In this document: in pieces, positions 7,881 to 36,993 of the stretch
Layout of the letters: each line of letters starts with the position of its first letter
How positions within the stretch are numbered: the first letter of the stretch is position 1
DNA from: an uncultured Acidobacteriota bacterium
GTDB taxonomy: Bacteria > Acidobacteriota > Vicinamibacteria > Vicinamibacterales > 2-12-FULL-66-21
Direction: 5' to 3'
Assembly (NCBI GenBank): GCA_963817635.1
Contig: CAWFPR010000027.1
Location: 26,274 to 90,273 of the forward strand
Length of the DNA stretch: 64,000 bases
Program-made: the position numbers and the translations under genes
Notes under the pieces: model-generated
Told to the model about the DNA's origin: nothing
Database searches by the model: none
What the model saw: only the letters and a program-made list of their open reading frames with translations

Positions 7881-7928
7881 ATGTCTATGCTCAACAGAAG
7901 GACAACAGACGGACGCAGATGCACACGT

Positions 7929-8918: not shown

Positions 8919-10066
8919 CGCAACAACTCCTCTGCAAGACGCGGATCGGGAGCGCGGCCACCTCGCGTGCCCGTGCTGGCGGTGAAGGCGTAGCCACCAC
9001 TGCCGCGCCGGCTGCCACCGCCCCCGGCTCCACGTGAGCCGACGACGCGCATGCCGGCGGCGCTGTGGCGACTGAATCCGGATGACGCTTTGCCGGAGGC
9101 GTGGGCGCCGCGGTAGTTGAGCGTCTCCACCTCGAGGTCACGCGTGTGCTCGCGGCCGTCGCGGTCCTCGTAGACGATGCGCGCGTCGGGAAACTGGACG
9201 TGACCGTCCTTCTCGGGAAGGTCGTGGTCCATCGCCCAGCGCGCGATCTCGTCGGGTGCACGATCGGGACGGCCGTCGCTGTCGGGCTTGCCGCGGTTGT
9301 GCTCCTGGAGGAACTGTTGGTACGCGCGTTTCAGCTCGGTGTCGAGCATCACGCGATGAATAACCGCGCCATCCGCGCGCAGCCGGTCGGCCTCGCGTTC
9401 GTAGGCCTGGTAGACCTGCGCGTCGTGCAGCAGCTCGCGCGGGCGTTGAAGGCCGGCGTAGAAGTGCTGATCGCGCTCGTGGCGGTTGCGTTCGAGGACG
9501 TCGCGGCCGCGCTCGGTGAGGACGACGAGCGCACGGCCGTCGCGGACCGGAATGGTTCGCACGAGCTTCTGTTCACGCAGGTGCCGGAGCTCGCCGCTGC
9601 GGGGGTCGAAGGCGTGGCCCCGGCTGTCCCGGAGGTCGCCGGCGTGCACGACGCGGAACGCGCCGGTCGTCGCCAGCGCCCGCGCTTCCGAGCCGCGCAA
9701 GAGGACGCTGTGCTCGCGGAACCACACGCGTTCGCGGTCCGGGCCGCGCGGCAGGTCGAGGTCACGCGTGAACACCTCCCGCGGGTCGCGCGGGTCACGT
9801 TCGAGCGGATCGGACGAGGCGCCTCGACTGCCCTGGTGCAGCTCACGTCCTGATGCCTCTCGTCGAACATCGTCGCGGCGGTCGTCGTCGCGCGGGTCAT
9901 CACTCCAGCGAGGATCGCAGTCCATGGACACCCCTTCGATTGGATGGGGCGGAACTGACGTGCCGCCCGACGCACGCGTGCACAGAACGGCCGCGAAGCG
10001 CCGCGCACGGCCGCATGTGGCCCGTTTCGACGGCGCTTCGCCGACAAGCGCCTTGATTTGCATCAT
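8915..10066 (-). CDS. hypothetical DNA-binding protein (wHTH; Replic_Relax-like), Gly-rich C-terminus
   Basis: 383-aa ORF; Asp/Arg-rich N-terminus, wHTH-like LLRGSEARALATTGAFRVVHAGDL...RALVVLTERGRDVL, Gly-rich tail; function assignment is tentative. Confidence 0.45.
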   Translation of the reverse strand: MMQIKALVGEAPSKRATCGRARRFAAVLCTRASGGTSVPPHPIEGVSMDCDPRWSDDPRDDDRRDDVRREASGRELHQGSRGASSDPLERDPRDPREVFTRDLDLPRGPDRERVWFREHSVLLRGSEARALATTGAFRVVHAGDLRDSRGHAFDPRSGELRHLREQKLVRTIPVRDGRALVVLTERGRDVLERNRHERDQHFYAGLQRPRELLHDAQVYQAYEREADRLRADGAVIHRVMLDTELKRAYQQFLQEHNRGKPDSDGRPDRAPDEIARWAMDHDLPEKDGHVQFPDARIVYEDRDGREHTRDLEVETLNYRGAHASGKASSGFSRHSAAGMRVVGSRGAGGGGSRRGSGGYAFTASTGTRGGRAPDPRLAEELLR

Positions 10067-10213: not shown

Positions 10214-10289
10214 TGGTCGGGGCGACTGGATTCGAACCAGCGACCCCCTGCGCCCAAGGCAGGTGCGCTACCAGGCTGCGCTACGCCCC
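10214..10289 (-). tRNA. tRNA-Pro (anticodon TGG), CCA encoded
   Basis: reverse complement reads GGGGCGTAGCGCAGCCTGGTAGCGCACCTGCCTTGGGCGCAGGGGGTCGCTGGTTCGAATCCAGTCGCCCCGACCA; cloverleaf with anticodon loop CTTGGGC, T-loop GGTTCGAATCC, 7-bp acceptor stem. Confidence 0.9.
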
Positions 10290-10419
10290 GACTGCCCGCA
10301 TTATCCCACATCCCCTCTGCAGCGGTCGCCATCGGCTCTGGCCGAGGAGGAAACGCGGTCCCCGCGCCACCCGCCCCGGACAGAGAAACAGCCCCCGTTG
10401 CGGCTATGATGCCGTGTCC

Positions 10420-15888: not shown

Positions 15889-15911
15889 TCGGCGGGCCGT
15901 ATACTGACTTC

Positions 15912-17918
15912 GTGAAGTCCGCGTCCGGCATTCTCCTCTGCGTCGTGTGCACCGCGTGCGGCGGCGGGCGATCGTCTGAGCCCCCGCCGGTTCCGGCTCC
16001 ATCGGCCAGGAACCTCGTCATCATCACGATCGACACGCTCCGCGCCGATCGCGTCGGCGCGTACGGCTACCGGGCGGCGCGCACACCAGCCATCGATGCG
16101 CTGGCGCGCGACGGGATGCGTTTCACCCACGCCTATGCCACCGCGCCGATCACGCTGACCTCCCACGCCAGCCTGATGACCGGGCGCTACCCGGCAGGCC
16201 ACGGCGCGCGGCACAACGGCATGCGGCTGGACCTCTCGACGCCGACGCTGGCTGATGCGCTTTCGCGCGCGGGCTTCGCGACCGGTGGCTTCGTCGGCGC
16301 TTTTCCGCTGGATCGCCGGTTCGGGCTGATCAAGGGCTTCCAGACCTACGGCGATCGCATGCCGCGCGGCGCTCCGGGACACGCCATCAACGAGCGTCCC
16401 GGCCGCCTGGTGGTGGACGAAGCGCTCGCCTGGCTGGCGGCCAATCGCGCCGGGCGGTTCTTCCTGTGGGTCCACCTGTTCGAACCGCATGCCCCATACG
16501 GCAATCCCGCGGATCCGGTCGAGGCCCGCCGGCCCGCGCAGGCGCGATATGACGACGAGGTGTCGGAAGCGGACCGGCAGGTGGCCCGCGTCATCGAAGC
16601 GCTCGGCGCCGACCGCGCCTCGACGCTCGTCGTCTTTGCCGCCGATCACGGAGAGGCCTTCGGCGAGCATGGCGAGATTGGCCACAGCGTCTTCGTCTAC
16701 GACACGACGCTCCATGTGCCGCTCGTGTTCAGCGGCCCCGGGATTCCGGCGGGTCGTACCAGCGACGAGCGGGTGGATCTGATCGACGTCGCGCCAACGG
16801 TGATGCGTGCGCTTGCCGTCACGCCGTTCGACACGGACGGCGTCGATCTGGAGCCGGTGATTTCCGGCGGCGCGCTGCCGGCGCGCGATCTGTATGCGGA
16901 GTCGTTCGCGCCCCTGCTCGATTTCGGGTGGAGCCCGCTGCGCAGCCTCCGGTCCGGTTCCTGGAAGTACATCGCGGCTCCCTCACCTGAGCTGTTCGAC
17001 CTGGCGAGGGATCCAGCCGAGACCACCAACGTCCTCGAGGCGCACAAGGCCGAGGCCGCGGCGCTCGGTGAACGCGTGCAGCGGTTTTCAGGGACCGAGC
17101 TGACCAGGCGTGCGGCGAACGACCCGGAGGCGCTCGCGCGGCTCCAGGCGCTGGGATACGCGTCGGGCTCGAAGGTGGTGACGGACAGCACGCGGCCGGA
17201 TCCGAAGGATCGTCGCGCACTGGCGGCGCGCATCGCGCGGGTCGCGTCGGGCGAACTGCAGGGCCGCGCGCTCGAGCGGGAGCTGCGCGCCATCCTCGCC
17301 GAAGACCCGGCCAACCCCCAGGCGCACCTGCGGCTCGGCTACGTGCTGGTCGACTCGGACCGCTGCGCCGAAGCCGCCGGCCACTTCAGACAGGCGATCG
17401 CCGAGCACCTGCCGTCGGTGGACGCTCATCTCGGGCTCGCCGGCTGCGATGCGGCGGCGCACCGGTTCGACGCCGCGGCCGCGACGCTGCGCCAGGCGGA
17501 GCAGATCGAGCCCGACAACCCTGTCGTCATCGCGAACCTCGGACTCGTGCTCTCGGATGCGGGCCATCCCGATCAGGCGGTCGCGCCGCTGCGCCGCGCG
17601 CTCACGCTCGATCCCGATCTGCACCAGGCGCGCTTCGCGCTCGCGCTCGCGCTCGCGCGCACTGACCATCGCGCCGATGCGTCCGAGACCGCGCGCGAAC
17701 TCCTCCGGCGCCTGCCGCCCGATGCCCCGCAGCGCGCGGAAGTCGAGCGGCTCCTGAGCCGCCCTGCGATAGCGCGCCGCCGTTCGTACCCAATCCATCA
17801 CTCGCCTCCGCGCGATCCAATTCGACGTACGCCGCCCGGGGACAGCGGCGCGATCCCGGCTCCTCGTCCTCGCCGCCTGTCGAATCGTCACACGACCGGC
17901 TGGTGCTCCTTTTGCTGA
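15912..17918 (+). CDS. sulfatase-like (alkaline-phosphatase superfamily) hydrolase/transferase fused to C-terminal TPR repeats
   Basis: LVIITIDTLRADRVGAYGY, GRFFLWVHLFEPHAPY, DHGEAFGEHGE motifs; lipoprotein-like signal; TPR region 17250-17760; the long upstream ORF extension 14115-15911 is antisense overlap with the permease and was not called; canonical C/S-x-P-x-R absent (APITLTSHAS). Confidence 0.8.
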   Translation: MKSASGILLCVVCTACGGGRSSEPPPVPAPSARNLVIITIDTLRADRVGAYGYRAARTPAIDALARDGMRFTHAYATAPITLTSHASLMTGRYPAGHGARHNGMRLDLSTPTLADALSRAGFATGGFVGAFPLDRRFGLIKGFQTYGDRMPRGAPGHAINERPGRLVVDEALAWLAANRAGRFFLWVHLFEPHAPYGNPADPVEARRPAQARYDDEVSEADRQVARVIEALGADRASTLVVFAADHGEAFGEHGEIGHSVFVYDTTLHVPLVFSGPGIPAGRTSDERVDLIDVAPTVMRALAVTPFDTDGVDLEPVISGGALPARDLYAESFAPLLDFGWSPLRSLRSGSWKYIAAPSPELFDLARDPAETTNVLEAHKAEAAALGERVQRFSGTELTRRAANDPEALARLQALGYASGSKVVTDSTRPDPKDRRALAARIARVASGELQGRALERELRAILAEDPANPQAHLRLGYVLVDSDRCAEAAGHFRQAIAEHLPSVDAHLGLAGCDAAAHRFDAAAATLRQAEQIEPDNPVVIANLGLVLSDAGHPDQAVAPLRRALTLDPDLHQARFALALALARTDHRADASETARELLRRLPPDAPQRAEVERLLSRPAIARRRSYPIHHSPPRDPIRRTPPGDSGAIPAPRPRRLSNRHTTGWCSFC

Positions 17919-17980
17919 ACCGGCGGGTCACGCGATTCGCGACGCGAATCGCCTGTCCTTTCATCAGGAGGCAGCAGAGC

Positions 17981-20921
17981 ATGAGAAGGTTCATCGTTGC
18001 GATGGTCGTCGCCGGCGTCGCCGCGCTCGCGGGACATCCCGCCTTCGCGCAGCAGACCACCGGCAGCATCACCGGACGCGTCATCGACCCGCAGGGCGCA
18101 GCCATCCCCGGTGTGACGGTGACGGCGAAGAACACGCAGACGGGCTTCGTGCGGACCGACGTGAGCGACACCGAAGGCGTCTACCGGCTCAACGCGCTGC
18201 CGGTCGGCAGCTACGACGTCGTCGCCGAGCTTCAGGGCTTCAGCAGGATTGAGCACAAGGGCCTCACGCTCAATGTCGGGCAGACGCTCGACATCGGCCT
18301 GTCCATGAAGGTCGCGAACATGGAGGAGACCGTCACGGTCACCGGCGAGTCGCCGCTCATCGAGACCCGCTCGTCGTCGGTAGGCGGCGTGGTGGATGTC
18401 GGCCGGATCGAGAACCTGCCGCTCAACGGCCGGCAGTTCGCGAACCTCGCGGCCACCATCCCGGGGGTGGGACTCGGCTTCCACTCGGATCCGACCAAGA
18501 GCTCGCAGTTCTCGCCGCAGGTGAACGGCGGCAACGGCCGCAACGTCAACTACCAGATCGACGGCGGCGACAACAACGACGATACCGTCGGCGGACTGCT
18601 TCAGAACTTCCCTCTCGAGGCCATCCAGGAATTCAATTTCATCACCCAGCGCTTCAAGGCGGAGTACGGCCGGAGCAACGGCGGCGTGATGAACATCGTG
18701 ACCAAGAGCGGCACGAACCAGGTACAGCGGCAGTGCATTCTCGCTCGTGCGCGACAAGTCGCTCAACGCGCGCACGCACTCGGAGGAAGCCGCCGGGGCG
18801 CCGAAGGCGGACTACCGGCGCTACCAGCTCGGCGGATCGTTCGGCGGCCCGATCGTCCGGGACCGGTCGTTCTACTTCGGCGCCTTCGAGCACACGCAGC
18901 AGGACACCAACCAGCAGGTCGATACGCTCGGGCTCTTCCCGTCACAGGACGGCGTCTACAAGACGCCGATCCGCGAGACGCTCGTCAACGTCAAGCAGAC
19001 GACGACGATCAATGCGGCGCAGTACCTGTCGGTGCGCTACGGCCGGAACACGAACACCCAGCCGTACGGCGGCGGCGCCTGCAGGTTCGCGCCGAGCTCC
19101 TGGAGCACGAGCGAGAACACGTTCAACTCGATCAACGTGAACCACAACTGGGTGCTGGGCGGCTCCCGGCTGAACGAGTTCATCTTCCAGTATGCGAACT
19201 TCGCGAACTCGATCGGTCTCAGCAGCTCGGATCCCTACGAACTGTTCCCCAATACCGTGGCGATCGGCGCCAACCCGAACACGCCGCAGGCGACCGAGCA
19301 GACCAAGTGGCAGTTCCGCGACGACTTCTCGTGGAGCGTGACCGGCATGGGCGGACTCGGCCACGACATGAAGGCTGGCGCGAACTTCATCAATGAGCCG
19401 CACCTCTACGCGACGTTCAACAGCGGCGTGGACGACTACCAGTACACCCACCTGACCGACGACAGGGGCGGTCCGATCCAGACCATCACGCGCAACGGGG
19501 GCGTCGGGTCGGTGAACATCCCGTTCAAGCAGTACGCCGCCTACATCCAGGACGACTGGCGGATGTCCGATCGCCTGACGCTGAACCTCGGTCTGCGCTA
19601 CGACCTGGTGACCGGCGTGCAGATCGACCAGTCGCAGAACCCGAACTTCGTGGCGCTGCAGGCTGCCGGCAGCGCCGGACGCTTCGCGGGGATCCCCGGC
19701 ATGGAGGACTTCGGGAAGGCCCCGAAAGACGATCGCAACAACCTCCAGCCGCGCGTCGGCTTCGCGTGGGACATCAAGGGCACCGGCCAGGACGTGGTCC
19801 GCGGCGGCTGGGGCGTCTACCAGGACTTCGGCTACACCAACGCCAACGTGCTCTTCCCCGCCATCGACGCCAGCGGCCAGGGCCACGGCGCGATCTTCTC
19901 GGTGAACAGCCCGGGCGGCATCCTGAAGTCCGACGGCACGTTCTTCAACGTCGGCGATCCGATCTCGACCATCGAGAGCCAGAACGAGGCGGATCCGACC
20001 CGCCTGCCGCTCTTCGGCCAGGTGCTGTCGCCGCGGCTCCAGCAGCCCTACACGCGGCAGACGAACATCGGCTGGGCGCATCAGCTCGGGGCCTCCACCG
20101 CGATCACGGCCGACTACGTGCACATCGACGGCCGCGACCTCAATACGCGCTTCCGCTACAACTACCTGGATCCGGCGACGGGCCTGCGCCGGCTGGCGGG
20201 GCTCGACATCCGGCCGAATACGCAGGCGTTCCGCGCGGCGATCAGCGGCGCGACGAGCTCCTACGACGCGCTGATACTCGGGGCGCGGCGCCGGCTGTCT
20301 CACGGACTGGACTTCACCGTGTCGTACACGCTGGCGCAGGCAAAGAGCGACATCGGTGCGGCGTCGGATGAACTCGACGCCAACTACATCCAGGACGTCA
20401 CGCAGCCGTTCGCCGACGTGCAGAACGGACCGTCTGGACGCACCGACGCCCGCCACCGCGTCACGGCGAGCGCCGTGATTCGCGCGCCGTGGGGGGTCCA
20501 GGTGTCGCCGTTCTTCCTGTTCCGATCGGCGCTGCCGATCTTCACCTTCGAAGGGGTGGACCTGAATCACGACGGCAACAACAACGACCTGACGGCCAAG
20601 GCCTACGAGTACGACGGCCTGGGCAACGCGCCGAAGGAGATTGGCACCTGCACGACGGTCAACTGCAGCCGGGGCGCGAGCTTCGCGCAGCTGAACCTGC
20701 GGGTCTCGAAATCGTTCCCGATCGTCGGCCGCGCGCGCGTCGAGGCCATCGGCGAGATCTTCAACGTGACGAACGCGCTCAACCCGGCGTTCCCGCTGAC
20801 CTCGCAGCGGCTTGCCGGCGGCGTGCAGCGCGCGGCGTTCGTGCAGCCGACGGCGTTTGCCGGCGACTTCCGGCAGCCCGAGCAGCGCGTCGGCCAGATC
20901 GGATTCCGGTTCTCGTTCTGA
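17981..20921 (+). CDS. TonB-dependent receptor-like outer-membrane protein with N-terminal carboxypeptidase-regulatory-like domain (copy 1), one frameshift near 18740
   Basis: AGGAGG 10 nt upstream; signal MRRFIVAMVVAGVAALAGHPAFAQQ; TGSITGRVIDPQGAAIPGVTVTAKN...GVYRLNALPVGSYDV; plug/barrel motifs; C-terminal RVGQIGFRFSF; ORFs 17903..19396 and 18747..20921 join. Confidence 0.8.
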
Positions 20922-21202
20922 CGGTCGCGTCCGGCATCTGCATCGTTCGATAGGAGAGGCGACGGGATGGTCCCATTCGTCCGGGACCATCCCGTCCCGC
21001 CACTTGTCCCTCGTGTTTTTCTGGATGTTCGCGTCCGGCGCAAACGGGATATTGGATTCGGCGCTCACCCGTCCATCACGCCGTCCGTCACTCTCCCTTC
21101 CAATCCAACGGCTTGATCGATCGTGACGAGCTGTGCCACGGCTGGCGCGCGTGTTGCTGTCGCGTGGGCTCCGAACACTCACTCTTAGGAGGCACGGCAA
21201 GA

Positions 21203-24156
21203 ATGAAGAGAATCATCGTCACGGCCCTGGTGCTGTTGTGCGCGGCCGCGAAGGCCAACGCGCAGCAGACCGGCACGATCAACGGGCGCATCGTCGACGC
21301 GCAGGGAGCCGCGGTTCCCGGCGTGACGGTCACCGCCACGAGCACCTCGACGGGATTTGCCCGCACGGTGGTCTCGGACGGCGAGGGCATCTACCGGCTG
21401 AACGGCCTGCCGGTCGGCGCCTACGACCTGCACGCCGAGATCTCCGGCTTCGCGCCGTGGGAGCGGAAGCGCGTCACGGTGAACGTGGCGCAGACGACCG
21501 ATCTGAACATCGATTTGCAGCTCGCCGGGATGACCGAAGCGGTGAGCGTGACGGCCGAGGCCCCGCTCGTGAAGACGACCGATTCGTCGGTGGGTGGGGT
21601 CGTGGACGTCACCAAGATCGAAAGCCTGCCGCTCAACGGCCGGCAGTTCGCGAACCTGGCGATGACGATTCCCGGCGTCGGCCTCGGCTTCCACTCCGAC
21701 CCGACGAAGAGCACGCAGTACTCGCCGCAGATTGCCGGAGGCAACGGCCGCAACGTCAACTACCAGATCGACGGCGGCGACAACAACGACGATACGGTCG
21801 GCGGGCTGCTGCAGCTCTTTCCGCTCGAAGCGATCCAGGAGTTCAACTTCGTCACCCAGCGCTACAAGGCCGAATACGGCCGCAGCAACGGCGGCGTGAT
21901 GAACATCGTGACCAAGAGCGGGACGAACAACCTGAAAGGCAGCTGGTTCACGTCGATGCGCGACAAGAGCCTCAACGCGCGCACGATGACCGAGAAGATC
22001 AACAACGTCGCAAAGCAGGACTACCGCCGCTACCAGTACGGCGGGTCGCTCGGCGGCCCGATCGTGCAGAACAGGGCGCACTACTTCGCCGCCTTCGAGC
22101 GCACGCAGCAGGACACCAAACAGGCGGTCAGCACGCTCGGGCTCTTCCCGGAGCGAGGACGGGGTCTTCAACACGCCGAACCGCGAGAACCTGTTCACCG
22201 GCAAAGTCTCGACCAACCTCAACGCCTCGCAGTACCTGTCGGTCCGCTACGGCCGAAACACGAATTCGCAGGTGTACGGCGCTGCGACCCGTTCGGTGCC
22301 GGCCAACTGGGGCGACAGCGTGAACACGTTCAACTCGTTCAACCTGAACCACAACTGGGTGCTCGGCGGCGGCTCGCTGAACGAGTTCGTGTTCCAGTAC
22401 GCCGACTTCGACAACCACGTCGCGGCCCGCACGGGCGATCCGCGCCAGGTGTTCCCGAACAGCGTGATCATCGGCTACAACGCGAACACGCCGCAGTCGA
22501 CCATCCAGCACAAGTTCCAGTTCCGCGATGACTTCACCTGGCACGTGACCGGAATGGGCGGGCTCGGTCACGACTTCAAGGCCGGCGCGAACTTCATCAA
22601 CGAGCCGAAGCTGTACGTGACGTTCGCCTCCGGCAGCACCGACTACGCCTACACGCATCTGACCAACGACATCAACGGTCCGATTCAGACGATCACGCGC
22701 AGCAAGCCGGGTTCGTCGGCCAACCTGCCGCTGAAGCAGTACGGCGCCTACGTCCAGGACGACTGGCGCGCCACCGATCGCCTGACGATCAACCTCGGCG
22801 TCCGCTACGACCTGGTCACCGGCGTGCTGCTGGACCAGTCGAAGATTCCGAACTACGTGGCGCTCACGGCGGCCGCGGCCGCCGGCCGGTTCGATGGCGT
22901 GCCGGGCTTCGACGAGTTCGGCAAGAAGGCGCAGGAAGACAAGAACAACATCCAGCCGCGCGTCGGTGCGGTGTGGGACATTCACGGCAACGGCAAGGAC
23001 GTGGTCCGCGCCGGATGGGGCATCTACTACGACTTCGGCTTCACGAATGCCAACATCCTGTTCCCGGGCCTCAGCGTTCAGGGCGGCGCCGGCACGATTT
23101 TCACCGCGACGAATACGGCCGGGATCAAGCAACCCGGACGGCAGCTTCTTCACGGTCGGCCAGCCGATCGCGAACATCGCGAGCCAGAACGAAGTCAACC
23201 CGGACGGGCCGTTCTACAGCTCGAACGTCGCGGCGCCGCAGATCCGGCAGCCCTGGACGACGCAGGCGTCGGTGGGCTGGTCGCATGAGTTCGATTCGAC
23301 GACCGTGATCGACGTCGACTTCGTCAGCACCCGCGGCCACGACCTCGGCGTGCGCTGGCCGCTCAATACGCGCGTGAACGGCGGCGCCCGCCGCTACGCC
23401 GATCTCGGGCTGAATCCCGCCAACCCCACGATGAACCTGAGCGTCGGCGAAAGCCGGTTCGACGGCCTGAACCTCGGCGTGCGCCGTCGGCTGAACCACG
23501 GCATCCAGCTCAACGCGTGGTACTCGCTCTCGCGCGCGGATGGACTTGGCGGGCTCGGGGTGGACGAGTTGACCACCAACCTCGTGCAGGACGCCACGCA
23601 GCCGTTCGCGGACGTGCAGTGGGGACCGGCGGCCCGCACGGATGCGCGCCACAAGGTCACGGTGAGCGCCGTCATCCAGGCGCCGTGGGGGCTGTCAATC
23701 TCGCCGATCTTCCGGTACCGCTCCGCGCTGCCGATGCACATCTGGTACGGCTACGACGCGAACCAGGACGGCGTGAGCAACGACATCTACACGACCGCGT
23801 ACCGGTTCACGGGAGTCGATGACCAGGGCAATCCCTCGTTCAAGGAGATGGGCGCCTGCGAAAACGTGAACTGCGGACGCGGCGCGGCGCTGTCGCAGAT
23901 GAACCTGCGGGTGTCGAAGCTGTTCCGGCTGCCGGGCACGATGGCGATTGAAGCGTTCGGCGAGGTCTTCAACCTCTTCAACGCGATCAACCCCGCGTTC
24001 AACGTCGGCGCGTCCTCGTCGTCGCCCGCGTTCTTCACCGGAACGCTGGCGAATCACACGGAGAACACGGTGTTCATGCGGCCCAACGCGTATGCCGGAG
24101 ATGCCGGCCAGCCCGAACAGCGCGTCGGACAGGTGGGCTTCCGCTTCGTGTTCTAA
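21203..24156 (+). CDS. TonB-dependent receptor-like protein (copy 2), at least 3 frameshifts
   Basis: AGGAGG upstream; MKRIIVTALVLLCAAAKANAQQTGTINGRIVDAQG...; paralogous to copy 1 throughout; frame changes near 22150, 22270 and 23130; ends QRVGQVGFRFVF. Confidence 0.8.
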
Positions 24157-24206
24157 AGAGGCTTGGGGCTTGGGGCTTGGGGCTTGGGGGCGTCAGCCTC
24201 CAGGCC
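24157..24206. repeat. GGCTTGG-heptad repeat element (half copy) directly after the copy-2 stop
   Basis: AGAGGCTTGGGGCTTGGGGCTTGGGGCTTGGGGGCGTCAGCCTCCAGGCC; the same element follows the copy-3 stop (27494-27540). Confidence 0.6.
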
Positions 24207-24296
24207 ACAAGCTTCCGTCAGCCCGGGCAGCGCGTCGGCCAGGTCGGATTCCGATTCTCGTTCTTTCGATCGCGTCCGGCATCTCTATCGTTCGAT
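24207..24296 (+). other. orphan duplicate of a TBDR gene 3' end (recombination scar)
   Basis: CAGCCCGGGCAGCGCGTCGGCCAGGTCGGATTCCGATTCTCGTTCTTTCGATCGCGTCCGGCATCTCTATCGTTCGATAGG closely matches the last ~60 nt of copy 1 plus its downstream TCGCGTCCGGCATCT..ATCGTTCGATAGG motif, but lies in the copy-2/copy-3 spacer. Confidence 0.6.
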
Positions 24297-24542
24297 AGGC
24301 ACGTGGGGTGGTCCCCGACGTCTGGGACCATCCCACGTGACGAAAGTCCCAGCGCTTCCGTTGGATGTTCCCATCGGGCGAACACAATAAATTGGATCGC
24401 CCCATCGCGATCTGGCCCACCGTCCGTGCCTCCCGCTCGAATCCAACGGCATATTCGGCGGTGACGAGTGGTGACGCGGATGGCGCGCCTGTTGCTGACC
24501 AGTCGGCCCCGTTGCCGACACTTTCAGGGAGGCACGCCAGGA

Positions 24543-27493
24543 ATGAAGACAATCACTGTCACAGCCCTCGTGTTGCTCTGCGCCCTGGCCGGCACGGCCA
24601 GCGCCCAGCAGTCGGGCATCACGGGCCGCGTCGTGGACGCACAGGGAGCCGCGGTTCCCGGCGTCACGGTCACCGCGACCCAGTCCGCCACGGGCTTCGT
24701 GCGCACCGTGGTCTCCGATCGCGAAGGTATCTACCGGCTCAACGGCATGCCGGTCGGCTCCTACGACCTGACGGCGGAGATCGCCGGATTCGCCACGTGG
24801 GAGCGCAAGGGGATCATCGTCAACGTGGCCCAGACGACGGACCTGAACATCGACCTGAAGCTTGCCGGCATGACCGAGGCGGTCCAGGTCACGGGTGAAT
24901 CGCCGCTGATCAAGACCACCGATTCGTCGGTCGGCGGGGTGGTGGACGTCGGGAAGATCGAGAGCCTGCCGCTGAACGGGCGTCAGTTCGCGAACCTCGC
25001 GATGACGATCCCGGGCGTCGGGCTCGGCTTCCACTCCGACCCGACCAAGAGCACGCAGTACTCGCCGCAGATTGCGGGCGGCAACGGCCGCAACGTCAAC
25101 TACCAGATCGACGGCGGCGACAACAACGACGATACGGTCGGCGGCCTGCTGCAGCTCTTCCCGCTCGAAGCGATCCAGGAGTTCAACTTCGTCACCCAGC
25201 GCTACAAGGCCGAGTACGGCCGCAGCAACGGCGGCGTGATGAACATCGTGACCAAGAGCGGGACGAACACCCTGAAGGGCAGCTGGTTCACGCTGTTCCG
25301 CGACAAGACCCTCAACGCCCGCACCGAGACCGAGAAGCTGACCGACGTGCCGAAGCAGGACTATCGCCGGTACCAGTTCGGCGGCTCGTTCGGCGGCCCG
25401 ATCCTCCGGGACAAGGCCCACTTCTTCGGGGCCTTCGAACGCACGCAGCAGGACACGCTGCAGTCGGTGGACACCAAGGGGCTGTTCCCCGACCAGGACG
25501 GGGTCTACACGACGCCGTATCGCGAGAACCTGGTGACCGTGAAGGGCACGGCCAGCCTGAACGCCTCGCAGTATCTGTCGGTCCGCTACGGCCGCAACAC
25601 CAACAGCCAGCCGTACGGCGTGGACCCGTCGACTCCGCCGAGCGGCTGGGGGAAGAGCTCCAACACGTTCAACTCGATCAACGCCAACCACAACTGGGTG
25701 CTGGGCGGAGCGAAGCTGAACGAGTTCATTTTCCAGTTCGCGGAGTTCGCCAATGCGATTACGGCCAACAGCCTCGACCCGCAGGTCAGTTTCCCGAACG
25801 GCGTGAGCATCGGGCAGAACACCAATACGCCGCAGCAGACGCAGCAGAAGAAGTGGCAGTTCCGCGATGACTTCACCTGGAGCGCAGCGGGGCTGGGCGG
25901 CCTGAGCCACGGGTTCAAGGCCGGCGTCAACTTCATCAACGAGCCGCGCCTGTTCATCACGTTCAACACGGGGACGGGCGACTACGCGTACTCGCTGTTG
26001 ACCAACGCGCTGAACGGCCTGGTCACCGACGTCACGCGCAACGGCGGCGCGGCCGAGTCCAACATCCCCACGAAGCAGTTCGCCGCCTACGTCCAGGACG
26101 ACTGGAAGGTCAGCAACCGGCTGACGCTGAACCTCGGGTTCCGCTACGACCTGCTCACGGGGTTTGCGATCGATCAGACGAAGAACCCGAACTTCGTGAT
26201 CGCTGCAGGCTGCCGCGGCCGCGGGCCGCTTCGCGGGCCAGCCGGCTTTCCAGGACTTCGGCAAGAGTCCCAAGGAGGATCGCAACAACTGGCAGCCCCG
26301 CGTCGGCGCGGTGTGTACGACTTGAGCGGCGACGGCAGGGACGTCATCCGCGCCGGCTGGGGCCGGTACTACGACGTCGGCTACACGAACGCCAACATCC
26401 TGTTCGCGGCGATCAACGCGACGGGCATCGGCGCCGGCCAGGTGTTCAACGTCCACAACATGAACGGCATCCTGAAGGCGGACGGCAGCCGTTCCACGTC
26501 GGTGATCCGGTCAGCAGCATCCAGTCGCAGAACGAGGCCGGCGGCGCCCTCCCGCTGAACTCGCACATCGCGTCGCCCCGCATCAGGCAGCCCTACTCGG
26601 ACGCAGACGACGATCGGGTGGTCGCACCAGCTCGACGCCGCGACGGTGATCGACGTGGACTACACCCATTCGGCGGGGCACGACCTCGGCTGGCGCAGCC
26701 AGTTGAACCAGCGCGACCACGGCTCCGCTCGCGTCAGTTCGCCGACCTGCCCTCAGCCCGGCGAAATTCACCTCGACATCAGCGACGGCAGGAGCCGGTT
26801 ATGACGGCGCTGAACTTCGGGCGTGCGCCGGCGTATGTCGAACGGCGTGTCGTTCACGGCGTGGTACTCGCTGTCGCGCGGCGAAGGCCACGGCGGGCAA
26901 CGGGTCGGACGAGCTGACATCCAGAACGTGCAGGACCACCTGGATCCGTCTCGCCGACGTGCAGTATCGGTCCCTCGGCCGAACCGATGCGCGCCACAAG
27001 CGCGACGATCTCGCGGCGTATGGAACGCGCCCTGGGCATCACCGTGTCTCCGGTGTTCCGCTTCGATCGGCGCTGCCGGTGGGGATCGGGAAGGAATCGA
27101 CCTGAATAGCAATGGCGTCAACAACGACATCGACACGGAGGCGTTCGACTATGACGGCCTGAACAGTGACGGCACGGTCAAGCTCAAGGATCGCGGCGCG
27201 TGCACGACGATCAACTGCGGACGCGGCGCGTCGCAGTCCACCTATCAACCTGCGCGTGTCGAAGAGCGTCACCTGTCGCGGCACGACGTGGATCGAGGCG
27301 TTCGCCGAGGTGTTCAACCTGTTCAACGTGAAGAACCCCAATTCAGCGTGGGTGTGGCCTCGTCGCCCGGTTACCTGGGCATGTGGCCAGCTCACGGAGA
27401 ATCCGGACTTCCTGCGTCCGACGGAGCTACTCCGGCGACTGCCAGAACCCGGAGCAGCGCGTCGGCCAGATCGGGTTCCGCTTCGTGTTCTAA
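24543..27493 (+). pseudogene. TonB-dependent receptor-like protein (copy 3); 3' third heavily decayed
   Basis: AGGGAGG upstream; MKTITVTALVLLCALAGTASAQQSGITGRVVDAQG...; intact to ~26200, then two shifts near 26205-26310; after 26490 the reading frame changes roughly every 50-150 nt, yet still ends with QRVGQIGFRFVF-TAA. Confidence 0.75.
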
Positions 27494-27497
27494 AGAG

Positions 27498-27620
27498 GCT
27501 TGGGGCTTCGGGCTTGGGGCTTGGGGGCGTCAGCCTCCGGGCCTCAGGCCGGCTCTGAGCCCAACCTAGCCCAAGCCTGACCCTGAGCCCCCAAGCCAGA
27601 AGCCTGAAGCCTCAAGCCCC
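27498..27620. repeat. long imperfect hairpin built from GGCTTGG / CCAAGCC heptads (REP-like; probable bidirectional terminator)
   Basis: fills the 126-nt spacer between convergent stops; left arm GGCTTGGGGCTTCGGGCTTGGGGCTTGGGGG, right arm CCCCCAAGCCAGAAGCCTGAAGCCTCAAGCCCC. Confidence 0.6.
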
Positions 27621-29692
27621 TACCGCAGGCCCGCGAGCAGCGTCGCGGCCGCCTTCCGTTCTTTCGTGGCGCTCGCGGGAGCCGTGTCGAGCACGTGCTG
27701 ATAGGTGTCGGCGGCGCGCCCGCGGTCGCCGCTCTCCTGGTAGGCAATCCCCAGATTCAACTGCGCCTCGTACAGATGCGGATCGCTGGCGACCGCCTGT
27801 TCGAGGAATTCGATCGCATCGTCCGGGCGCTTGCGCTGGACCAGCACGACGCCGAGGCCGTTGTTTGCATCCGCAAACGAAGTGTCGATTTGAAGCGCGC
27901 GGCGGTAGGCCTCCTCGGCGCGATCCAGGTCGCCAAGGTCACGGCGCGCATTGCCCAGGTTCGTCCAGAACGACGCATTGGACGGATCCTCGGCTGCCGC
28001 GCGTTCGAACGCGTCGGCCGCGCCGGCGGCATCGCCTGATTCGGCGCGCAGCAGACCCAGGCCGTTCAGCGCGGCGGCGTTCGTTCCGTCGATCGCCAGC
28101 GCGGCCTGTTCGGCGCGCAGCGCCTCCCGCGGATCTCCCGCGGTGCGCGCCGCCACCGCCAGATCGTGATAAAGCGACGGGTCCGCCGGCCAGCGCGCGA
28201 CCGCCTCGCGGTAGACCTTCACGGCGGCGCGCGCCGACCCGGTGTCCTTCAGGGCCCGCGCGTACGTCGACAGGAAGACGCGCGCCGCCGGATGGGCGGC
28301 GGCGAGCGCCTTCAGGCGCGGCAGTGCGGCCGCCGCCCGCCCGGCGTTGACGTCGGCCAGCGCCTCCTCGAAGCTCGTCCAGGCCGCGATGTGACGTGCG
28401 GGATTCGGCGCCGCGCCAGCATCGGCGACGGGCTGCGCGCCCCCACCGACGTAGCCGAGCGCCCGCAATCGCTCGGCGGCCTCCGGGGACATCTCCGGAT
28501 CCGCGCGCGGCCCTTTCGCCTCGGACAGCTCGCGCGCCCTCCCCGTCATCGCCTCGACGGTCGCGCGGCGCGCGGCGGCCAGGTTGTGCTGTTCGCCGGG
28601 ATCGGCGGCGACGTCGTACAGTTCGGACTCCGACGACAGAATCAGCTTCCATCGATCGGCGGCGAGGACGGTCAGGGCGTGCCAGCCCGCGACGCGAGGG
28701 TATTCCGTCTCCGCGTACACCTCCTCCGGCTCGTGCGACAGCAGGTGCAGGCCGGCGCTCATGCCGGCGGGCGCGGCGACGCCGTTGAGCGCGACGAGCG
28801 CGCCGGCGAGCGCGGCGAGCGAGACGTTGTCGTCGAAGGTGCCGGCCACGACACCCGGCCCATGGAGAATCAGCGGCACACGCAGCGTGGAATCGTAGGC
28901 GAGGATTCCGTGCGCCTGCTCGCCGTGCTCGCCGAGCCCTTCGCCATGGTCGCCGGCCACGGCAATCACGGTGTCGTCGAAGACCCCACGGTCCCGAAGC
29001 GCCGCCAGCAGCCGGCCGACCTGCGCGTCGGCATAGGCGACTTCTCCGTCGTACGCATTTCCGCCCGCCCTGGCCAGGAACTCCGGCGGCGGATCGTACG
29101 GCGCGTGGGGATCGTAGAGGTGGACCCAGAGAAAGAACGGACCAGCCGGCAACCTGCGCAGCCAGTCGAGCGCGGCATCGACGACCTCCCCGCCCCGCCG
29201 CTCCGCCTCGAGCGCGGCGCCGCGATCCGGATCGCGGTGCACGCGGTCGTCGTACACGTCGAAGCCGTCGTCCAGTCCGAAGATATGATTCAGCACGTAG
29301 GCGCCGACGAAGGCGCCGGTGTGGTATCCCGCGCCGCGGAGCACGCTCGCGAGCGTCGGCGGGCCCGGCTCGAACGTCAGGCCGTTGTCGTGGACCCCGT
29401 GCACCGGCGGCAGCGTGCCGGTCATGATGGTGGTGTGCGACGGCAGCGTGAGGGGGACCGCGGTCCGCGCGTGCGTGAACCTGGCGCCGCCGTCAGCGGC
29501 GAGCGCGTCGAGCGCCGGCGTCAGTCCGCGTCCGAGCCGGTCGGCGCGCAGCGTATCGATCGTGATGAGGACGACGCTGTGGCGGGACGGACTGGCGGAC
29601 CGGGCGCCGCGCGGCGTGCGTTCGCGCGTCCAGAGAAGTATCCCGGCCGCACAAAGGCCGCCGACGATCACCACGGCCACGAGTCGTCTCAT
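27620..29692 (-). CDS. sulfatase-like hydrolase/transferase fused to C-terminal TPR repeats (paralog of 15912..17918)
   Basis: 690 aa intact; signal/TM MRRLVAVVIVGGLCAAGILLW; VVLITIDTLRADRLG, GPFFLWVHLYDPHAPY, GDHGEGLGEHGE; TPR region in the C-terminal 300 aa. Confidence 0.8.
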   Translation of the reverse strand: MRRLVAVVIVGGLCAAGILLWTRERTPRGARSASPSRHSVVLITIDTLRADRLGRGLTPALDALAADGGARFTHARTAVPLTLPSHTTIMTGTLPPVHGVHDNGLTFEPGPPTLASVLRGAGYHTGAFVGAYVLNHIFGLDDGFDVYDDRVHRDPDRGAALEAERRGGEVVDAALDWLRRLPAGPFFLWVHLYDPHAPYDPPPEFLARAGGNAYDGEVAYADAQVGRLLAALRDRGVFDDTVIAVAGDHGEGLGEHGEQAHGILAYDSTLRVPLILHGPGVVAGTFDDNVSLAALAGALVALNGVAAPAGMSAGLHLLSHEPEEVYAETEYPRVAGWHALTVLAADRWKLILSSESELYDVAADPGEQHNLAAARRATVEAMTGRARELSEAKGPRADPEMSPEAAERLRALGYVGGGAQPVADAGAAPNPARHIAAWTSFEEALADVNAGRAAAALPRLKALAAAHPAARVFLSTYARALKDTGSARAAVKVYREAVARWPADPSLYHDLAVAARTAGDPREALRAEQAALAIDGTNAAALNGLGLLRAESGDAAGAADAFERAAAEDPSNASFWTNLGNARRDLGDLDRAEEAYRRALQIDTSFADANNGLGVVLVQRKRPDDAIEFLEQAVASDPHLYEAQLNLGIAYQESGDRGRAADTYQHVLDTAPASATKERKAAATLLAGLR

Positions 29693-36730: not shown

Positions 36731-36993
36731 ATCCGTGATGTTCACCAGGCAAATCCCCATGAACAGGTTAACGACGCGGAATCGTGAGGCGAACAAGGCT
36801 CCGCTTGTTCTCTTGGCCCCGCGCCGGCGTTATCAATACGAGGGGTGAATTGCCAGCAGTGCAACAGGATCGCGCGAGCCGGGTGGGAGCCACCGTGGCG
36901 CTCGCGAGCCGCAACATGTTGCTTCAATCCGGGGGGCGGAACCCGTATGATACGGCGTACCGAGCCTCCATGCCTTGGGCTCGCCCATCGGCC

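What the first reader, a model, noticed from the sequence alone, without database searches (positions are those of the whole stretch)
17981..27493. Tandem triplication of TBDR-like genes with their ~280-nt leaders, and progressive decay of the third copy
Three ~980-aa paralogs sit head-to-tail. Each leader contains a conserved 11-bp-stem hairpin (GGGATGGTCCC-n8-GGGACCATCCC at 20964-20993; a near-identical copy at 24305-24334), a conserved motif CCAACGGC...GTGACGAG...TGGCGCGC.TGTTGCTG, and an AGGAGGCACG..AAGAATG ribosome-binding/start context. Copy 1 has 1 frame lesion, copy 2 has 3, and copy 3 has many. Conserved structured leaders suggest a shared cis-regulatory RNA (attenuator or sRNA target) for this receptor family.
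Basis: seen in the sequence. Interest (0 to 1): 0.6.

Follow-up and report, generated by a model that had tools for sequence, protein, structure and literature searches.

The report
Receptor gene trio with sigma-54-type promoters
Three neighbouring outer-membrane receptor genes of a soil Acidobacterium share upstream sequence because each carries the same kind of DNA promoter (sigma-54 type, with upstream regulator boxes) and a terminator hairpin left by the gene in front, not a regulatory RNA leader, and most of the apparent gene damage looks like assembly error.

Summary
Three ~980-aa Oar-like TonB-dependent-receptor-like genes lie head to tail (17981-20921, 21203-24156, 24543-27493). Two of the three upstream regions are homologous (67.5% identity) and carry the hairpin at the stated coordinates.

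The motif TGGCGCGC.TGTTGCTG is a sigma-54-type -24/-12 promoter (TGG-N8-TTGCT). It occurs only three times in the window, once before each copy. It sits about 79 nt before the start codon in 31 of 80 related genome loci and 20 of 49 metagenome loci. CCAACGGC and GTGACGAG belong to two DNA boxes (TTGGAT/ATCCAA and TCGTC[AC]C). Both are enriched 14-17 fold upstream of homologues, in either orientation and at fixed distances from the promoter.

The hairpin lies 40 nt after the stop codon of copy 1 and about 165 nt upstream of the next promoter. An orthologue has the same hairpin followed by UUUU. Another relative has a different canonical terminator there. It is best read as the terminator of the upstream gene.

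Copies 1 and 2 are orthologues of an intact tandem pair in relatives. Copy 3 is a mosaic. Frameshifts also hit housekeeping ahcY and the flanking sulfatase gene, dN/dS is about 0.2 throughout, and no stop codons appear, so "progressive decay" is probably assembly error.

The parts
15942..17773 (+). Sulfatase-TPR gene, the conserved upstream partner of the receptor genes. An extra base near 17760 makes the raw ORF run on to 17918.
   Evidence: Pfam Sulfatase + TPR. It is 79% identical to the L084 orthologue with one +1 frameshift at residue 618 of 620. The C-terminal motif PQRxEVxRL is found upstream of the receptor gene in 46 of 78 genome loci.
17791..17821 (+). ATCCAT / ATCCAAT boxes (TTGGAT-family boxes) about 85-110 nt upstream of the copy-1 promoter. 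Candidate activator-binding site.
   Evidence: Coordinates. Family-wide enrichment and position.
17885..17891 (+). TCGTCAC box, 10 nt upstream of the -24 element of copy 1.
   Evidence: The TCGTC[AC]C box peaks at -20..-1 from the TGG across loci.
17901..17916 (+). Sigma-54-type -24/-12 promoter of copy 1 (TGGTGCTCCTTTTGCT).
   Evidence: One of only 3 matches to TGG-N8-TTGCW in 64 kb on both strands. Same position as in homologues.
17932..17952 (+). 5' UTR hairpin of copy 1 (GCGATTCG-CGACG-CGAATCGC) followed by a pyrimidine/U-rich stretch and the ribosome-binding site AGGAGG (17966-17971).
   Evidence: Flagged as terminator-like. Fold -15.3 kcal/mol, z -2.5. Analogous hairpins that are not conserved in sequence occur in many orthologous UTRs.
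17981..20921 (+). Copy 1 (type A), an Oar-like TonB-dependent-receptor-like gene, 979 aa after removing one extra C near 18719-18729.
   Evidence: 86-87% identical to intact 978-aa orthologues. dN/dS 0.20.
20961..20996 (+). 14-bp hairpin 40 nt after the copy-1 stop codon. Proposed terminator or 3'-end stabiliser of copy 1.
   Evidence: The L084 orthologue has the hairpin plus UUUU and folds only on the + strand. 4 compensatory pairs in 3 sequences.
21021..21129 (+).
   Evidence: Enrichment and positions.
21143..21158 (+). Sigma-54-type -24/-12 promoter of copy 2 (TGGCGCGCGTGTTGCT). The ribosome-binding site AGGAGG is at 21187-21192.
   Evidence: Conserved in the L084 orthologous intergenic region as TGGCCCGGCTGTTGCT.
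21203..24156 (+). Copy 2 (type B), 983 aa after removing extra bases near 22151-22155 and 23130-23133.
   Evidence: 84% identical to the intact second gene of L084. dN/dS 0.22.
24157..24215 (+). GGCTTGGGG x4 tandem repeat with a degenerate complementary arm. Hairpin directly after the copy-2 stop codon.
   Evidence: I2, D18; -48.6 kcal/mol, z -3.4.
24212..24264 (+). Relic of the last ~17 codons of a type-A (copy-1-like) gene, marking the left end of the copied segment.
   Evidence: 90% identity over the 88-nt block 24212-24299 versus 20867-20954 (D15). Alignment.
24300..24339 (+). Second copy of the hairpin (16 bp with one G.U pair), carried along with the relic.
24361..24467 (+). Regulator boxes of copy 3: TTGGAT 24361-24366 and 24392-24397, ATCCAA 24441-24446, GTGACGA 24461-24467.
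24481..24496 (+). Sigma-54-type -24/-12 promoter of copy 3 (TGGCGCGCCTGTTGCT). The ribosome-binding site GGGAGG is at 24527-24532.
24543..27493 (+). Copy 3, a mosaic. Codons 1-275 are type-B-like (79-94% to copy 2). The rest is a different paralogue type (72-85% to P0121, by segment). It carries 19-22 one- or two-base indels, all within 26199-27430.
   Evidence: dN/dS in the tail is 0.25 and there are no in-frame stops.
27494..27621 (.). Long GGCTTGGGG-repeat hairpin between copy 3 and the convergent sulfatase-TPR gene (27623-29692, minus strand). Probable bidirectional terminator.
   Evidence: I1; -86.7 kcal/mol, z -4.7. Pfam for the convergent gene.

Best explanation
The region is a conserved Vicinamibacterales (Acidobacteriota) gene slot. 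It runs from a sulfatase-TPR gene, through one to three Oar-like TonB-dependent-receptor-like genes, to a convergent sulfatase-TPR gene. Here the slot holds three paralogues.

Each paralogue appears to be its own transcription unit. An upstream cluster of TTGGAT/ATCCAA boxes lies about 85-140 nt before the promoter and is probably the site for a dimeric activator. A TCGTC[AC]C box lies just upstream of the promoter. A sigma-54-type -24/-12 promoter (TGG-N8-TTGCT) follows, then a short 5' UTR of about 35-55 nt with a strong ribosome-binding site.

The 'leader hairpin' is the terminator or 3'-end hairpin of the gene in front (copy 1). It appears a second time because a segment of about 1.2 kb was copied or converted onto the front of a third, more divergent paralogue. 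That segment comprised the last ~55 nt of the type-A gene, the intergenic region and the first ~825 nt of the type-B gene.

The frameshifts in copies 1 and 2, and most likely the cluster in the tail of copy 3, are consensus errors of the assembly rather than gene decay.

Shown: the motif statistics, positions and cross-genome conservation; hairpin conservation and strand asymmetry; the mosaic structure; the frameshift distribution and dN/dS. Inferred: sigma-54 dependence, the activator role of the boxes, termination at the hairpin, and the error origin of the indels.
For: Promoter:
- TGG-N8-TTGCW occurs 3 times in 64 kb on both strands. All three sit 60-80 nt before the three start codons, including copy 1, whose upstream region is otherwise not alignable.
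- The strict motif lies at -130..-40 in 31 of 80 species-representative genome loci and in 20 of 49 independent metagenome loci.
- It is present in 42 of 88 loci overall. The median TGG-to-ATG distance is 79 nt (IQR 76-84), and the consensus is TGGTGCGcCnnTTGCT.
- The background rate is about 3e-5 per nt even with these sites included.
- Many loci that lack the strict motif have GGCAC-N5-TTGC variants.
- No sigma-70-like promoter was found in 17500-27800.

Boxes:
- TTGGAT occurs 78 times against 5.6 expected, in 50 of 85 upstream regions. TTCGTCCC occurs 38 times against 2.2 expected.
- TTGGAT boxes peak at -120..-81 from the TGG and ATCCAA boxes at -140..-81; 14 of 17 CCAA-N4-TTGG palindromes fall in the -120..-101 bin.
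- TCGTC[AC]C peaks at -20..-1 and at +20..+39, in both orientations.

Sigma-54 machinery: all three Acidobacteria genomes surveyed in PMC3372290 encode RpoN. An NtrC-type activator (GESGTGKE...ESELFGH...GAFTDA) is encoded next to locus L042.

Hairpin:
- It lies 40 nt after the stop codon.
- The orthologous L084 hairpin keeps pairing through 4 double changes and G.U pairs (95.7% of cells paired).
- The L084 hairpin is followed by UUUU. On the minus strand the hairpin does not form in the predicted fold, which is weaker and not significant (-40.7 versus -30.2 kcal/mol; z -2.69 versus -0.71).
- L085 has a different GC hairpin plus a T-run at the same place.
- The hairpin sequence was found in only 1 of the 83 loci held at that point.

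History: L084 and L085 carry intact A+B tandem pairs. Identities are c1-A 86%, c2-B 84% and c3-c2 65% overall, but 79-94% in codons 1-275.

Errors:
- ahcY, 92% identical to an intact orthologue, has two +1 frameshifts. The sulfatase-TPR gene has one.
- dN/dS is 0.20, 0.22 and 0.23 for the three copies. It is 0.25 in the copy-3 tail against 0.185 just before it.
- There are no in-frame stops after correction.
Against: - No transcription start or rpoN dependence has been measured. The source genome's rpoN and the cognate activator are not in the window (one search found no activator signature).
- Position 4-5 of the -24 element is usually TG rather than the canonical CA.
- Only about 40-50% of homologous loci carry the strict motif. 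Some subfamilies clearly use sigma-70-like promoters instead (TTGACA...TGAAAT).
- In the window the hairpin has no adjacent U-tract. In the first intergenic region the T-run starts 25 nt downstream.
- The indel density in the tail of copy 3 (15-17 per kb) is 30-50 times the window background (0.3-0.7 per kb). An error model must explain this by an unverified local assembly problem.
- Nanopore-derived relatives in the same collection rarely show frameshifts in this gene (1 of 26 loci).
Confidence: 0.68

Rival explanations
1. The ~280-nt regions are transcribed leaders that fold into a conserved regulatory RNA (attenuator, riboswitch-like element or sRNA target) shared by this receptor family. 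The 11-bp hairpin is its core.
For: The hairpin is a real, strongly stable structure with compensatory changes. The 5' UTR of copy 1 and many orthologous UTRs carry a small hairpin followed by a U-rich tract that resembles an attenuator (mean z -0.88, 20% of UTRs with z < -2). Read-through from the upstream gene would place the hairpin in a transcript.
Against: No Rfam match at gathering or permissive thresholds. The hairpin lies about 165 nt upstream of the predicted promoter and directly after a stop codon. Among the loci searched its sequence occurs only in L068, and in variant form in the L084 orthologue. In L085 it is replaced by an unrelated canonical terminator. The other 'leader motifs' occur in both orientations and as palindromes, which fits protein-DNA recognition. 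The predicted 5' UTRs of copies 2 and 3 are unstructured.
Confidence: 0.1
2. The frame lesions are genuine. The array is decaying after duplication. Copy 3 is a true pseudogene, and copies 1 and 2 were inactivated recently.
For: The frameshifts are present in the sequence as given, and not at long homopolymers. The tail of copy 3 carries 19-22 indels in 1.25 kb, 30-50 times the window background. Redundant paralogues are plausible targets for loss. Related long-read assemblies rarely show frameshifts in this gene.
Against: Housekeeping ahcY (92% identical to an intact orthologue) and the sulfatase-TPR gene carry the same kind of +1 insertions at a similar density to copies 1 and 2. dN/dS is 0.20-0.25 everywhere, including the tail of copy 3. 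There are no nonsense codons in the corrected frames. All indels are 1-2 nt, with no larger deletions. About 20 indels would normally be accompanied by many more substitutions and several stop codons.
Confidence: 0.22
3. The GGGATGGTCCC-N8-GGGACCATCCC element acts at the DNA level, as a palindromic operator or enhancer for the regulator of the downstream gene, rather than as an RNA hairpin.
For: In the first intergenic region it is a perfect palindrome. It lies at a constant ~160 nt upstream of the -24 element in IG1, IG2 and L084. It contains GGTCCC/GGGAC, which resembles the TCGTCCC box. Locus L068 has TGGTCCC-N3-GGGACCA upstream of its receptor gene.
Against: In L084 and IG2 the arms pair only through G.U, which would be mismatches in a DNA palindrome, and the L084 structure is lost on the opposite strand. 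Loop length and sequence vary. The element is absent from nearly all other loci that carry the promoter and TTGGAT boxes. The constant distance is explained by homology of these three regions.
Confidence: 0.12
4. TGG-N8-TTGCT is not a sigma-54 promoter. It would instead be the binding site of another factor, such as a repressor operator or an unusual alternative sigma factor, with transcription starting elsewhere.
For: The -24 region consensus TGGTGC departs from canonical TGGCAC. No rpoN or activator gene is in the window. TCGTC[AC]C boxes bracket the element and could themselves be the key signal.
Against: Invariant GG and GC 10 nt apart with the flanking T and TT is the defining sigma-54 pattern. 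Variants in other loci move towards the canonical GGCAC-N5-TTGC. A positioned palindrome about 110 nt upstream fits the enhancer geometry of such promoters. No sigma-70-like promoter is found in the region. Acidobacteria encode RpoN.
Confidence: 0.15

Closest known systems
Sigma-54 (RpoN)-dependent promoters with upstream enhancer sites for AAA+ activators (for example glnAp2/NtrC, Pu/XylR)
   Same: A bipartite -24 GG / -12 GC element with fixed spacing (TGG-N8-TTGCT). A positioned palindromic box about 110 nt upstream. No -35/-10 promoter. A short 5' UTR.
   Different: The -24 consensus is TGGTGC rather than TGGCAC. The box sequences (ATCCAA-N4-TTGGAT and TCGTC[AC]C flanking the promoter) are not ones I can assign to a known activator. 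The regulated genes are Oar-like outer-membrane receptors. Nothing is experimentally verified.
Oar of Myxococcus xanthus (a TonB-dependent transporter with an N-terminal carboxypeptidase-regulatory-like domain; PMC6434023)
   Same: The domain plan: signal peptide, CarboxypepD_reg domain, then a large beta-barrel ending in an aromatic residue. PMC6434023 was returned by the literature search on TonB-dependent transporters and the carboxypeptidase regulatory-like domain.
   Different: No direct sequence comparison with Oar was made here. The plug domain is only weakly detectable. Substrate and direction of transport are unknown.
Intrinsic (factor-independent) terminators and 3'-end stabilising hairpins
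   Same: A GC-rich perfect stem of 14-16 bp, 40 nt after a stop codon, with structure conserved through compensatory changes. A U-tract follows in the L084 orthologue, and a canonical terminator sits at the same place in L085.
   Different: In the window itself no U-tract follows directly. The second copy (24300-24339) follows a gene relic rather than a live gene.
Leader RNAs of TonB-dependent receptor genes (for example the cobalamin riboswitch before btuB)
   Same: A conserved sequence upstream of a receptor gene.
   Different: No Rfam match. The conserved blocks lie upstream of the predicted transcription start and occur in both orientations. No conserved fold exists in the UTRs of copies 2 and 3.

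Membership tests
Sigma-54-dependent promoter | -24 GG and -12 GC dinucleotides exactly 10 nt apart within TGGNNN-N5-TTGCW | tested here: met
   17901-17916, 21143-21158 and 24481-24496 are the only three matches in the window. The consensus from 42 sites is TGGTGCGcCnnTTGCT.
Sigma-54-dependent promoter | Conserved position upstream of orthologous genes in other genomes, far above chance | tested here: met
   31 of 80 genome loci and 20 of 49 metagenome loci. Median distance 79 nt to the ATG. Background about 3e-5 per nt.
Sigma-54-dependent promoter | Upstream activator site roughly 80-150 bp from the promoter | tested here: inconclusive
   TTGGAT/ATCCAA boxes and the CCAA-N4-TTGG palindrome peak at -140..-80 from the TGG. 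The binding protein is unknown. In copies 2 and 3 the boxes are separate half-sites.
Sigma-54-dependent promoter | The organism encodes RpoN and AAA+ activators | tested here: inconclusive
   Neither is in the window. An NtrC-type activator lies next to locus L042. All three Acidobacteria genomes surveyed in PMC3372290 have RpoN.
Sigma-54-dependent promoter | Transcription start about 12 nt after the GC, and dependence on rpoN and an activator | not testable with these tools
   This needs 5'-end mapping and genetics.
Intrinsic terminator | Stable GC-rich stem-loop shortly after the stop codon of the upstream gene | tested here: met
   20961-20996 lies 40 nt after the stop codon (-37 kcal/mol, z -3.8). 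The copy at 24300-24339 gives -42 kcal/mol.
Intrinsic terminator | U-tract directly 3' of the stem | tested here: inconclusive
   Absent in the window (the T-run starts 25 nt downstream in IG1 and there is none in IG2). Present in the L084 orthologue (UUUU) and in the replacement terminator of L085.
Intrinsic terminator | Structure conserved at the RNA level on the coding strand | tested here: met
   95.7% of cells paired, 4 pairs changed on both sides, and G.U pairs. The L084 hairpin forms only in the + strand fold (-40.7 kcal/mol, z -2.69; the minus-strand fold is -30.2 kcal/mol, z -0.71, without it). Only 3 sequences were available.
Cis-regulatory leader RNA (riboswitch or attenuator) | Match to a described RNA family | tested here: not met
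   Rfam at gathering threshold finds only a tRNA elsewhere. At E<=1 it finds only a spurious miRNA hit on the 27.5-kb hairpin.
Cis-regulatory leader RNA (riboswitch or attenuator) | The conserved structure lies inside the 5' UTR of the regulated gene | tested here: not met
   The hairpin is about 165 nt upstream of the predicted -24 element. The predicted UTRs of copies 2 and 3 have z +0.48 and -0.17. Only copy 1 has a UTR hairpin (17932-17952, z -2.5).
TonB-dependent receptor (Oar-like) | Outer-membrane beta-barrel domain and C-terminal aromatic residue | tested here: met
   PF25183 at E 1.6e-79 and PF00593 at 1.8e-6. The proteins end in GFRFSF or GFRFVF.
TonB-dependent receptor (Oar-like) | Plug domain and TonB box | tested here: inconclusive
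   The Plug domain was detected only weakly, in the fourth paralogue (E 9e-4). Residues 102-246 match the PqqU plug region at E 0.0012. The TonB box was not examined.
Pseudogene | Relaxed selection (dN/dS towards 1) and nonsense codons accompanying the frameshifts | tested here: not met
   dN/dS is 0.20, 0.22 and 0.23, and 0.25 in the copy-3 tail. There are zero in-frame stops after frame correction.
Pseudogene | Lesions specific to the gene rather than spread over neighbouring essential genes | tested here: inconclusive
   Not specific for copies 1 and 2: ahcY has 2 and the sulfatase-TPR gene has 1. The tail of copy 3 is 30-50 times denser than background.

The most novel reading that the evidence does not exclude
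Much of the order Vicinamibacterales, an abundant and largely uncultured group of soil bacteria, may place its expanded family of Oar-like outer-membrane receptors under one sigma-54 regulon, often paired with a sulfatase-TPR gene. The regulon would have a previously undescribed architecture: an ATCCAA-N4-TTGGAT enhancer palindrome about 110 nt upstream, TCGTC[AC]C boxes bracketing the -24/-12 element, and a 5'-terminal UTR hairpin. That would give a sequence handle for predicting when these dominant surface proteins are expressed.
Probability: 0.5. Interest if true: 0.5.

Novelty: new member of a known kind. Interest (0 to 1): 0.3.

Why it matters
The finding as written would have been misleading. 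It described a family-specific leader RNA and a textbook series of decaying duplicates. The conserved upstream blocks are in fact promoter and regulator sites, the hairpin is a terminator inherited with a gene relic, and the 'decay' is most likely assembly error.

A modest but useful result remains. A well-positioned sigma-54-type promoter with two new companion DNA boxes recurs upstream of a large receptor family across a dominant soil lineage whose gene regulation is almost unknown. This can be tested directly in the few cultivated Vicinamibacteria. It can also be used to predict co-regulated genes in metagenome-assembled genomes.

Tried and rejected
- Rfam scans at gathering and permissive thresholds found no RNA family in the upstream regions.
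- The sigma-70 promoter scan found none in 17500-27800.
- A search for activator signatures (GAFTGA, ESELFGH, Walker A) in all six frames of the window and 83 loci found only one real activator, next to L042. The L059 hit was spurious because that frame is full of stops. My first Pfam attempt on these used the wrong frames.
- Looking up the window's own contig through its 724-aa ORF product failed, and the cluster look-up gave no accession. The sequencing platform of the source therefore remains an inference.
- I tested whether long-read MAGs in general carry frameshifts in this gene. They do not (1 of 26 loci), so 'Nanopore error' cannot simply be assumed. The error argument rests on ahcY, dN/dS and the absence of stop codons.
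- The composition-based frame segmentation was too noisy to count frameshifts, so I replaced it with protein-guided frameshift-aware alignment.
- A literature search for sigma-54 control of TonB-dependent receptors in Acidobacteria found nothing relevant.
- I considered programmed frameshifting and rejected it. The sites share no slippery motif and also occur in unrelated genes.
- I considered ECF-sigma (FecI-type) control. The spacing of the two promoter elements does not fit, and the only ECF sigma gene in the window (36784-37611) is 9 kb away.

Full report
**What is there.** The window has about 67% G+C. The closest named protein hits are from Vicinamibacterales (Acidobacteriota) metagenome-assembled genomes. 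The 724-aa ORF at 18747-20921 is itself in the protein database at 100% identity, on a 194,684-bp contig from NCBI/ENA (P0022).

Three paralogous genes lie head to tail, with start codons at 17981, 21203 and 24543 and stops ending at 20921, 24156 and 27493. Each has a signal peptide, a CarboxypepD_reg domain and a large OMP_b-brl_4/TonB_dep_Rec barrel ending in GFRF(S/V)F. The only solved-structure match is a weak hit of the plug region to PqqU, and no NCBIfam model reaches its cut-off. 'TBDR-like' is therefore apt. The domain plan is that of Myxococcus Oar (PMC6434023, found).

The array is flanked by a sulfatase-TPR gene upstream (15942-17773) and a convergent sulfatase-TPR gene downstream (27623-29692, minus strand).

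**Checking the observation.**
- The hairpins exist at the stated coordinates. They extend to 14 bp (20961-20996) and 16 bp (24300-24339), with z-scores of -3.8 and -4.4 against shuffles.
- The two internal intergenic regions align at 67.5% identity (185 of 274). Third codon positions in the adjacent coding sequence of copies 2 and 3 are 72% identical. Overall, then, the 'leaders' are as diverged as silent sites, with islands of conservation.
- The region before copy 1 does not align, apart from a TGG-N8-TTGCT element and the ribosome-binding site.
- The second intergenic region is longer (386 nt). It starts with a GGCTTGGGG x4 hairpin, followed by a relic of the last ~17 codons of a copy-1-like gene. 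That relic is 90% identical over the 88-nt block 24212-24299 versus 20867-20954.
- Frame lesions were counted by protein-guided, frameshift-aware alignment. Copy 1 has one extra C near 18719-18729. Copy 2 has two extra bases (about 22151 and 23133), not three. Copy 3 has 19-22 one- or two-base indels, all between 26199 and 27430.

**What the conserved motifs are.** TGGCGCGC.TGTTGCTG fits the sigma-54 -24/-12 promoter pattern (TGG-N8-TTGCW). That pattern occurs three times in the whole 64-kb window on both strands, against 1.6 expected by chance. All three are 60-80 nt before the three start codons.

I collected 80 loci from species-representative genomes and 80 from metagenomes, plus contigs carrying the closest intact homologues.
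- The strict motif lies at -130..-40 from the start codon in 31 of 80 genome loci and in 20 of 49 usable metagenome loci.
- Across 42 sites the median distance from TGG to ATG is 79 nt (IQR 76-84). The consensus is TGGTGCGcCnnTTGCT, with a variable spacer of fixed length.
- The overall rate in about 1.5 Mb of locus sequence (both strands) is about 3e-5 per nt, and most of those hits are these same sites.
- Many loci without the strict motif have GGCAC-N5-TTGC variants. A more distant subfamily uses clear TTGACA...TGAAAT promoters instead.
- No sigma-70-like promoter is found anywhere in 17500-27800.

K-mer enrichment in the 300 nt upstream of these genes singles out two further motifs. TTGGAT/ATCCAA occurs 78 times against 5.6 expected, in 50 of 85 regions. 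TTCGTCCC/GGGACGAA occurs 38 times against 2.2 expected.

Relative to the TGG of the promoter, TTGGAT boxes peak at -120..-81 and ATCCAA boxes at -140..-81. In 14 of 17 cases the CCAA-N4-TTGG palindrome falls in the -120..-101 bin. TCGTC[AC]C peaks at -20..-1, with a second peak at +20..+39, in either orientation.

Palindromic boxes, orientation independence and a bipartite element with a fixed spacer are hallmarks of protein-DNA recognition, not of RNA structure.

All three Acidobacteria genomes surveyed in PMC3372290 encode RpoN. One related locus (L042) has an NtrC-type activator gene nearby. No activator or rpoN gene is in the window.

**What the hairpin is.** It starts 40 nt after the stop codon of copy 1 and lies about 165 nt upstream of the next promoter.
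- The exact TGGTCCC...GGGACCA pattern was found in only one (L068) of the 83 loci held at that point, again just after an upstream stop codon. Its orthologue in L084, fetched afterwards, has a variant sequence.
- L084 is the closest relative with context, and it carries an intact tandem pair of these genes. Its intergenic region is orthologous and has the hairpin as GCGGGGTGGCCCC / GGGGTCATCCCGC, followed directly by TTTT.
- Across the three available sequences, 95.7% of cells pair. Four pairs changed on both sides, and there are G.U pairs.
- The L084 structure forms only in the + strand fold (-40.7 kcal/mol, z -2.69). The minus-strand fold is weaker and not significant (-30.2 kcal/mol, z -0.71) and lacks the hairpin.
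- In L085, another intact tandem pair, the same place holds an unrelated GGCGCC-TCAC-GGCGCC hairpin followed by CTCTTTTTC, a canonical terminator.

The hairpin is therefore best read as the terminator or 3'-end hairpin of the upstream gene. Its second copy at 24300-24339 came along with the gene relic.

The predicted 5' UTRs of copies 2 and 3 are short (about 35 nt) and unstructured (z +0.48 and -0.17). Rfam finds nothing. Only copy 1 has a UTR hairpin (17932-17952). Similar hairpins that are not conserved in sequence, each followed by a U-rich tract, are common in orthologous UTRs (mean z -0.88; 20% with z < -2).

**History of the array.** Copy 1 is 86% identical to the first gene of L084, and copy 2 is 84% identical to the second. 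The A+B pair thus predates the split of these lineages.

Copy 3 is only 65% identical to copy 2 overall, but the similarity is uneven. In codons 1-275 it is as close to copy 2 and to L084-B (79-96%) as those two are to each other. From codon 276 on it is no closer to them than to any other paralogue (52-71%). Its best match there is a different receptor type (P0121/P0122; 73% over the body in the search, 72-85% by segment). In other genomes that type sits alone behind a sulfatase-TPR gene.

So a segment of about 1.2 kb was copied or converted onto the front of a third paralogue. The segment comprised the last ~55 nt of A, the intergenic region and the first ~825 nt of B. That explains why the two 'leaders' resemble each other. 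The cross-genome data explain which parts of them are kept.

**Are the genes decaying?** Frameshifts are not confined to the array.
- ahcY is 92% identical to an intact orthologue, yet it is split over three frames by two +1 insertions (42515 and 41749).
- The upstream sulfatase-TPR gene has a +1 insertion three codons before its stop, so its raw ORF runs on to 17918 over the copy-1 promoter.
- A fourth, distant receptor paralogue (52543-55501) is also split.
- The density in well-aligned neighbouring genes is 0.3-0.5 per kb. Copies 1 and 2 have 0.34 and 0.68 per kb.
- dN/dS against intact orthologues is 0.20, 0.22 and 0.23 for the three copies. In the indel-riddled tail of copy 3 it is 0.25, against 0.185 just upstream.
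- No in-frame stop codon appears after frame correction, and all indels are 1-2 nt.

This pattern fits consensus errors better than neutral decay.

Two cautions apply. The tail of copy 3 is 30-50 times denser in indels than the rest of the window. Related long-read assemblies rarely show frameshifts in this gene (1 of 26 loci). Without reads I cannot exclude a very recent real inactivation of copy 3, and I give that about 0.2-0.25.

**Verdict.** The sequence features are real. The triplication is an old pair plus a mosaic third gene. The shared upstream blocks are a sigma-54-type promoter with companion DNA boxes that are conserved across the order. The hairpin is a terminator. The decay series is probably an artefact.

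This is a new instance of known kinds of elements. The box motifs and the order-wide association with Oar-like receptors appear to be undescribed in the searched literature. That association is the only part that merits follow-up.

Noticed in passing
window 41428-42905 (minus strand): The S-adenosylhomocysteine hydrolase gene (ahcY), 92% identical to an intact orthologue, is broken by two single-base insertions (near 42515 and 41749). This points to assembly-wide indel errors.
   Followed up: yes
window 17760; raw ORF 14115-17918: An extra base three codons before the stop of the sulfatase-TPR gene makes the raw ORF read through the copy-1 promoter region. The true stop is at 17771-17773.
   Followed up: yes
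window 24157-24215 and 27494-27621; also L001 770-860, L071, L080, L042, L098 upstream regions: Intergenic hairpins are built from short tandem repeats (GGCTTGGGG here; GGCTCTAGG, GATCCCC and CCGGACCC types elsewhere) paired with their inverted complement. This seems a common style of gene-end structure in this order.
   Followed up: partly
window 17932-17952 and orthologous 5' UTRs (for example L005, L015, L029, L025): A small GC hairpin near the predicted 5' end of the mRNA is followed by a U/pyrimidine-rich tract before the ribosome-binding site. It is conserved in form but not in sequence (mean z -0.88; 20% of UTRs with z < -2). It could be an mRNA stabiliser or an attenuator.
   Followed up: partly
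L086 about 9900-9960, L087 about 3270-3320, L048, L032: Direct repeats of TCGTC[AC]C bracket the -24/-12 element. One ends about 8 nt before the TGG and one starts about 8 nt after TTGCT. This looks like an operator pair for an unknown factor.
   Followed up: partly
window 52280-55501: A fourth, distant receptor paralogue (24-26% identical) is also split by a frameshift near 55000. Its upstream region has TTGGAT (52432) and GGTACC (52447) but no -24/-12 match.
   Followed up: partly
L088, L091, L093, L094, L097, L100, L118 (metagenome relatives of copy 2): In this subgroup the TGG-N8-TTGC element lies about 240 nt before the start codon. It is followed by a conserved GGGACGA...GGTAGACC...TTGCCGTAGAAT block. 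This suggests a long leader or a second, sigma-70-like promoter.
   Followed up: no
L042 1-1100 (minus strand): An NtrC-type response regulator with a sigma-54 activator domain, preceded by a probable histidine kinase, lies about 2 kb from a receptor gene that has the promoter motif.
   Followed up: partly
window 37604-40160: A Ser/Thr protein kinase domain is truncated at profile position 204 of 263, and the gene continues as TPR repeats in another frame. This is probably another frameshifted gene. An ECF sigma factor gene is adjacent at 36784-37611.
   Followed up: no
window 7046-8461 (minus strand) and 10217-10290 (minus strand): An AbiEi-type antitoxin gene lies about 1.8 kb from a tRNA gene. 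This may be the edge of a mobile or defence island.
   Followed up: no
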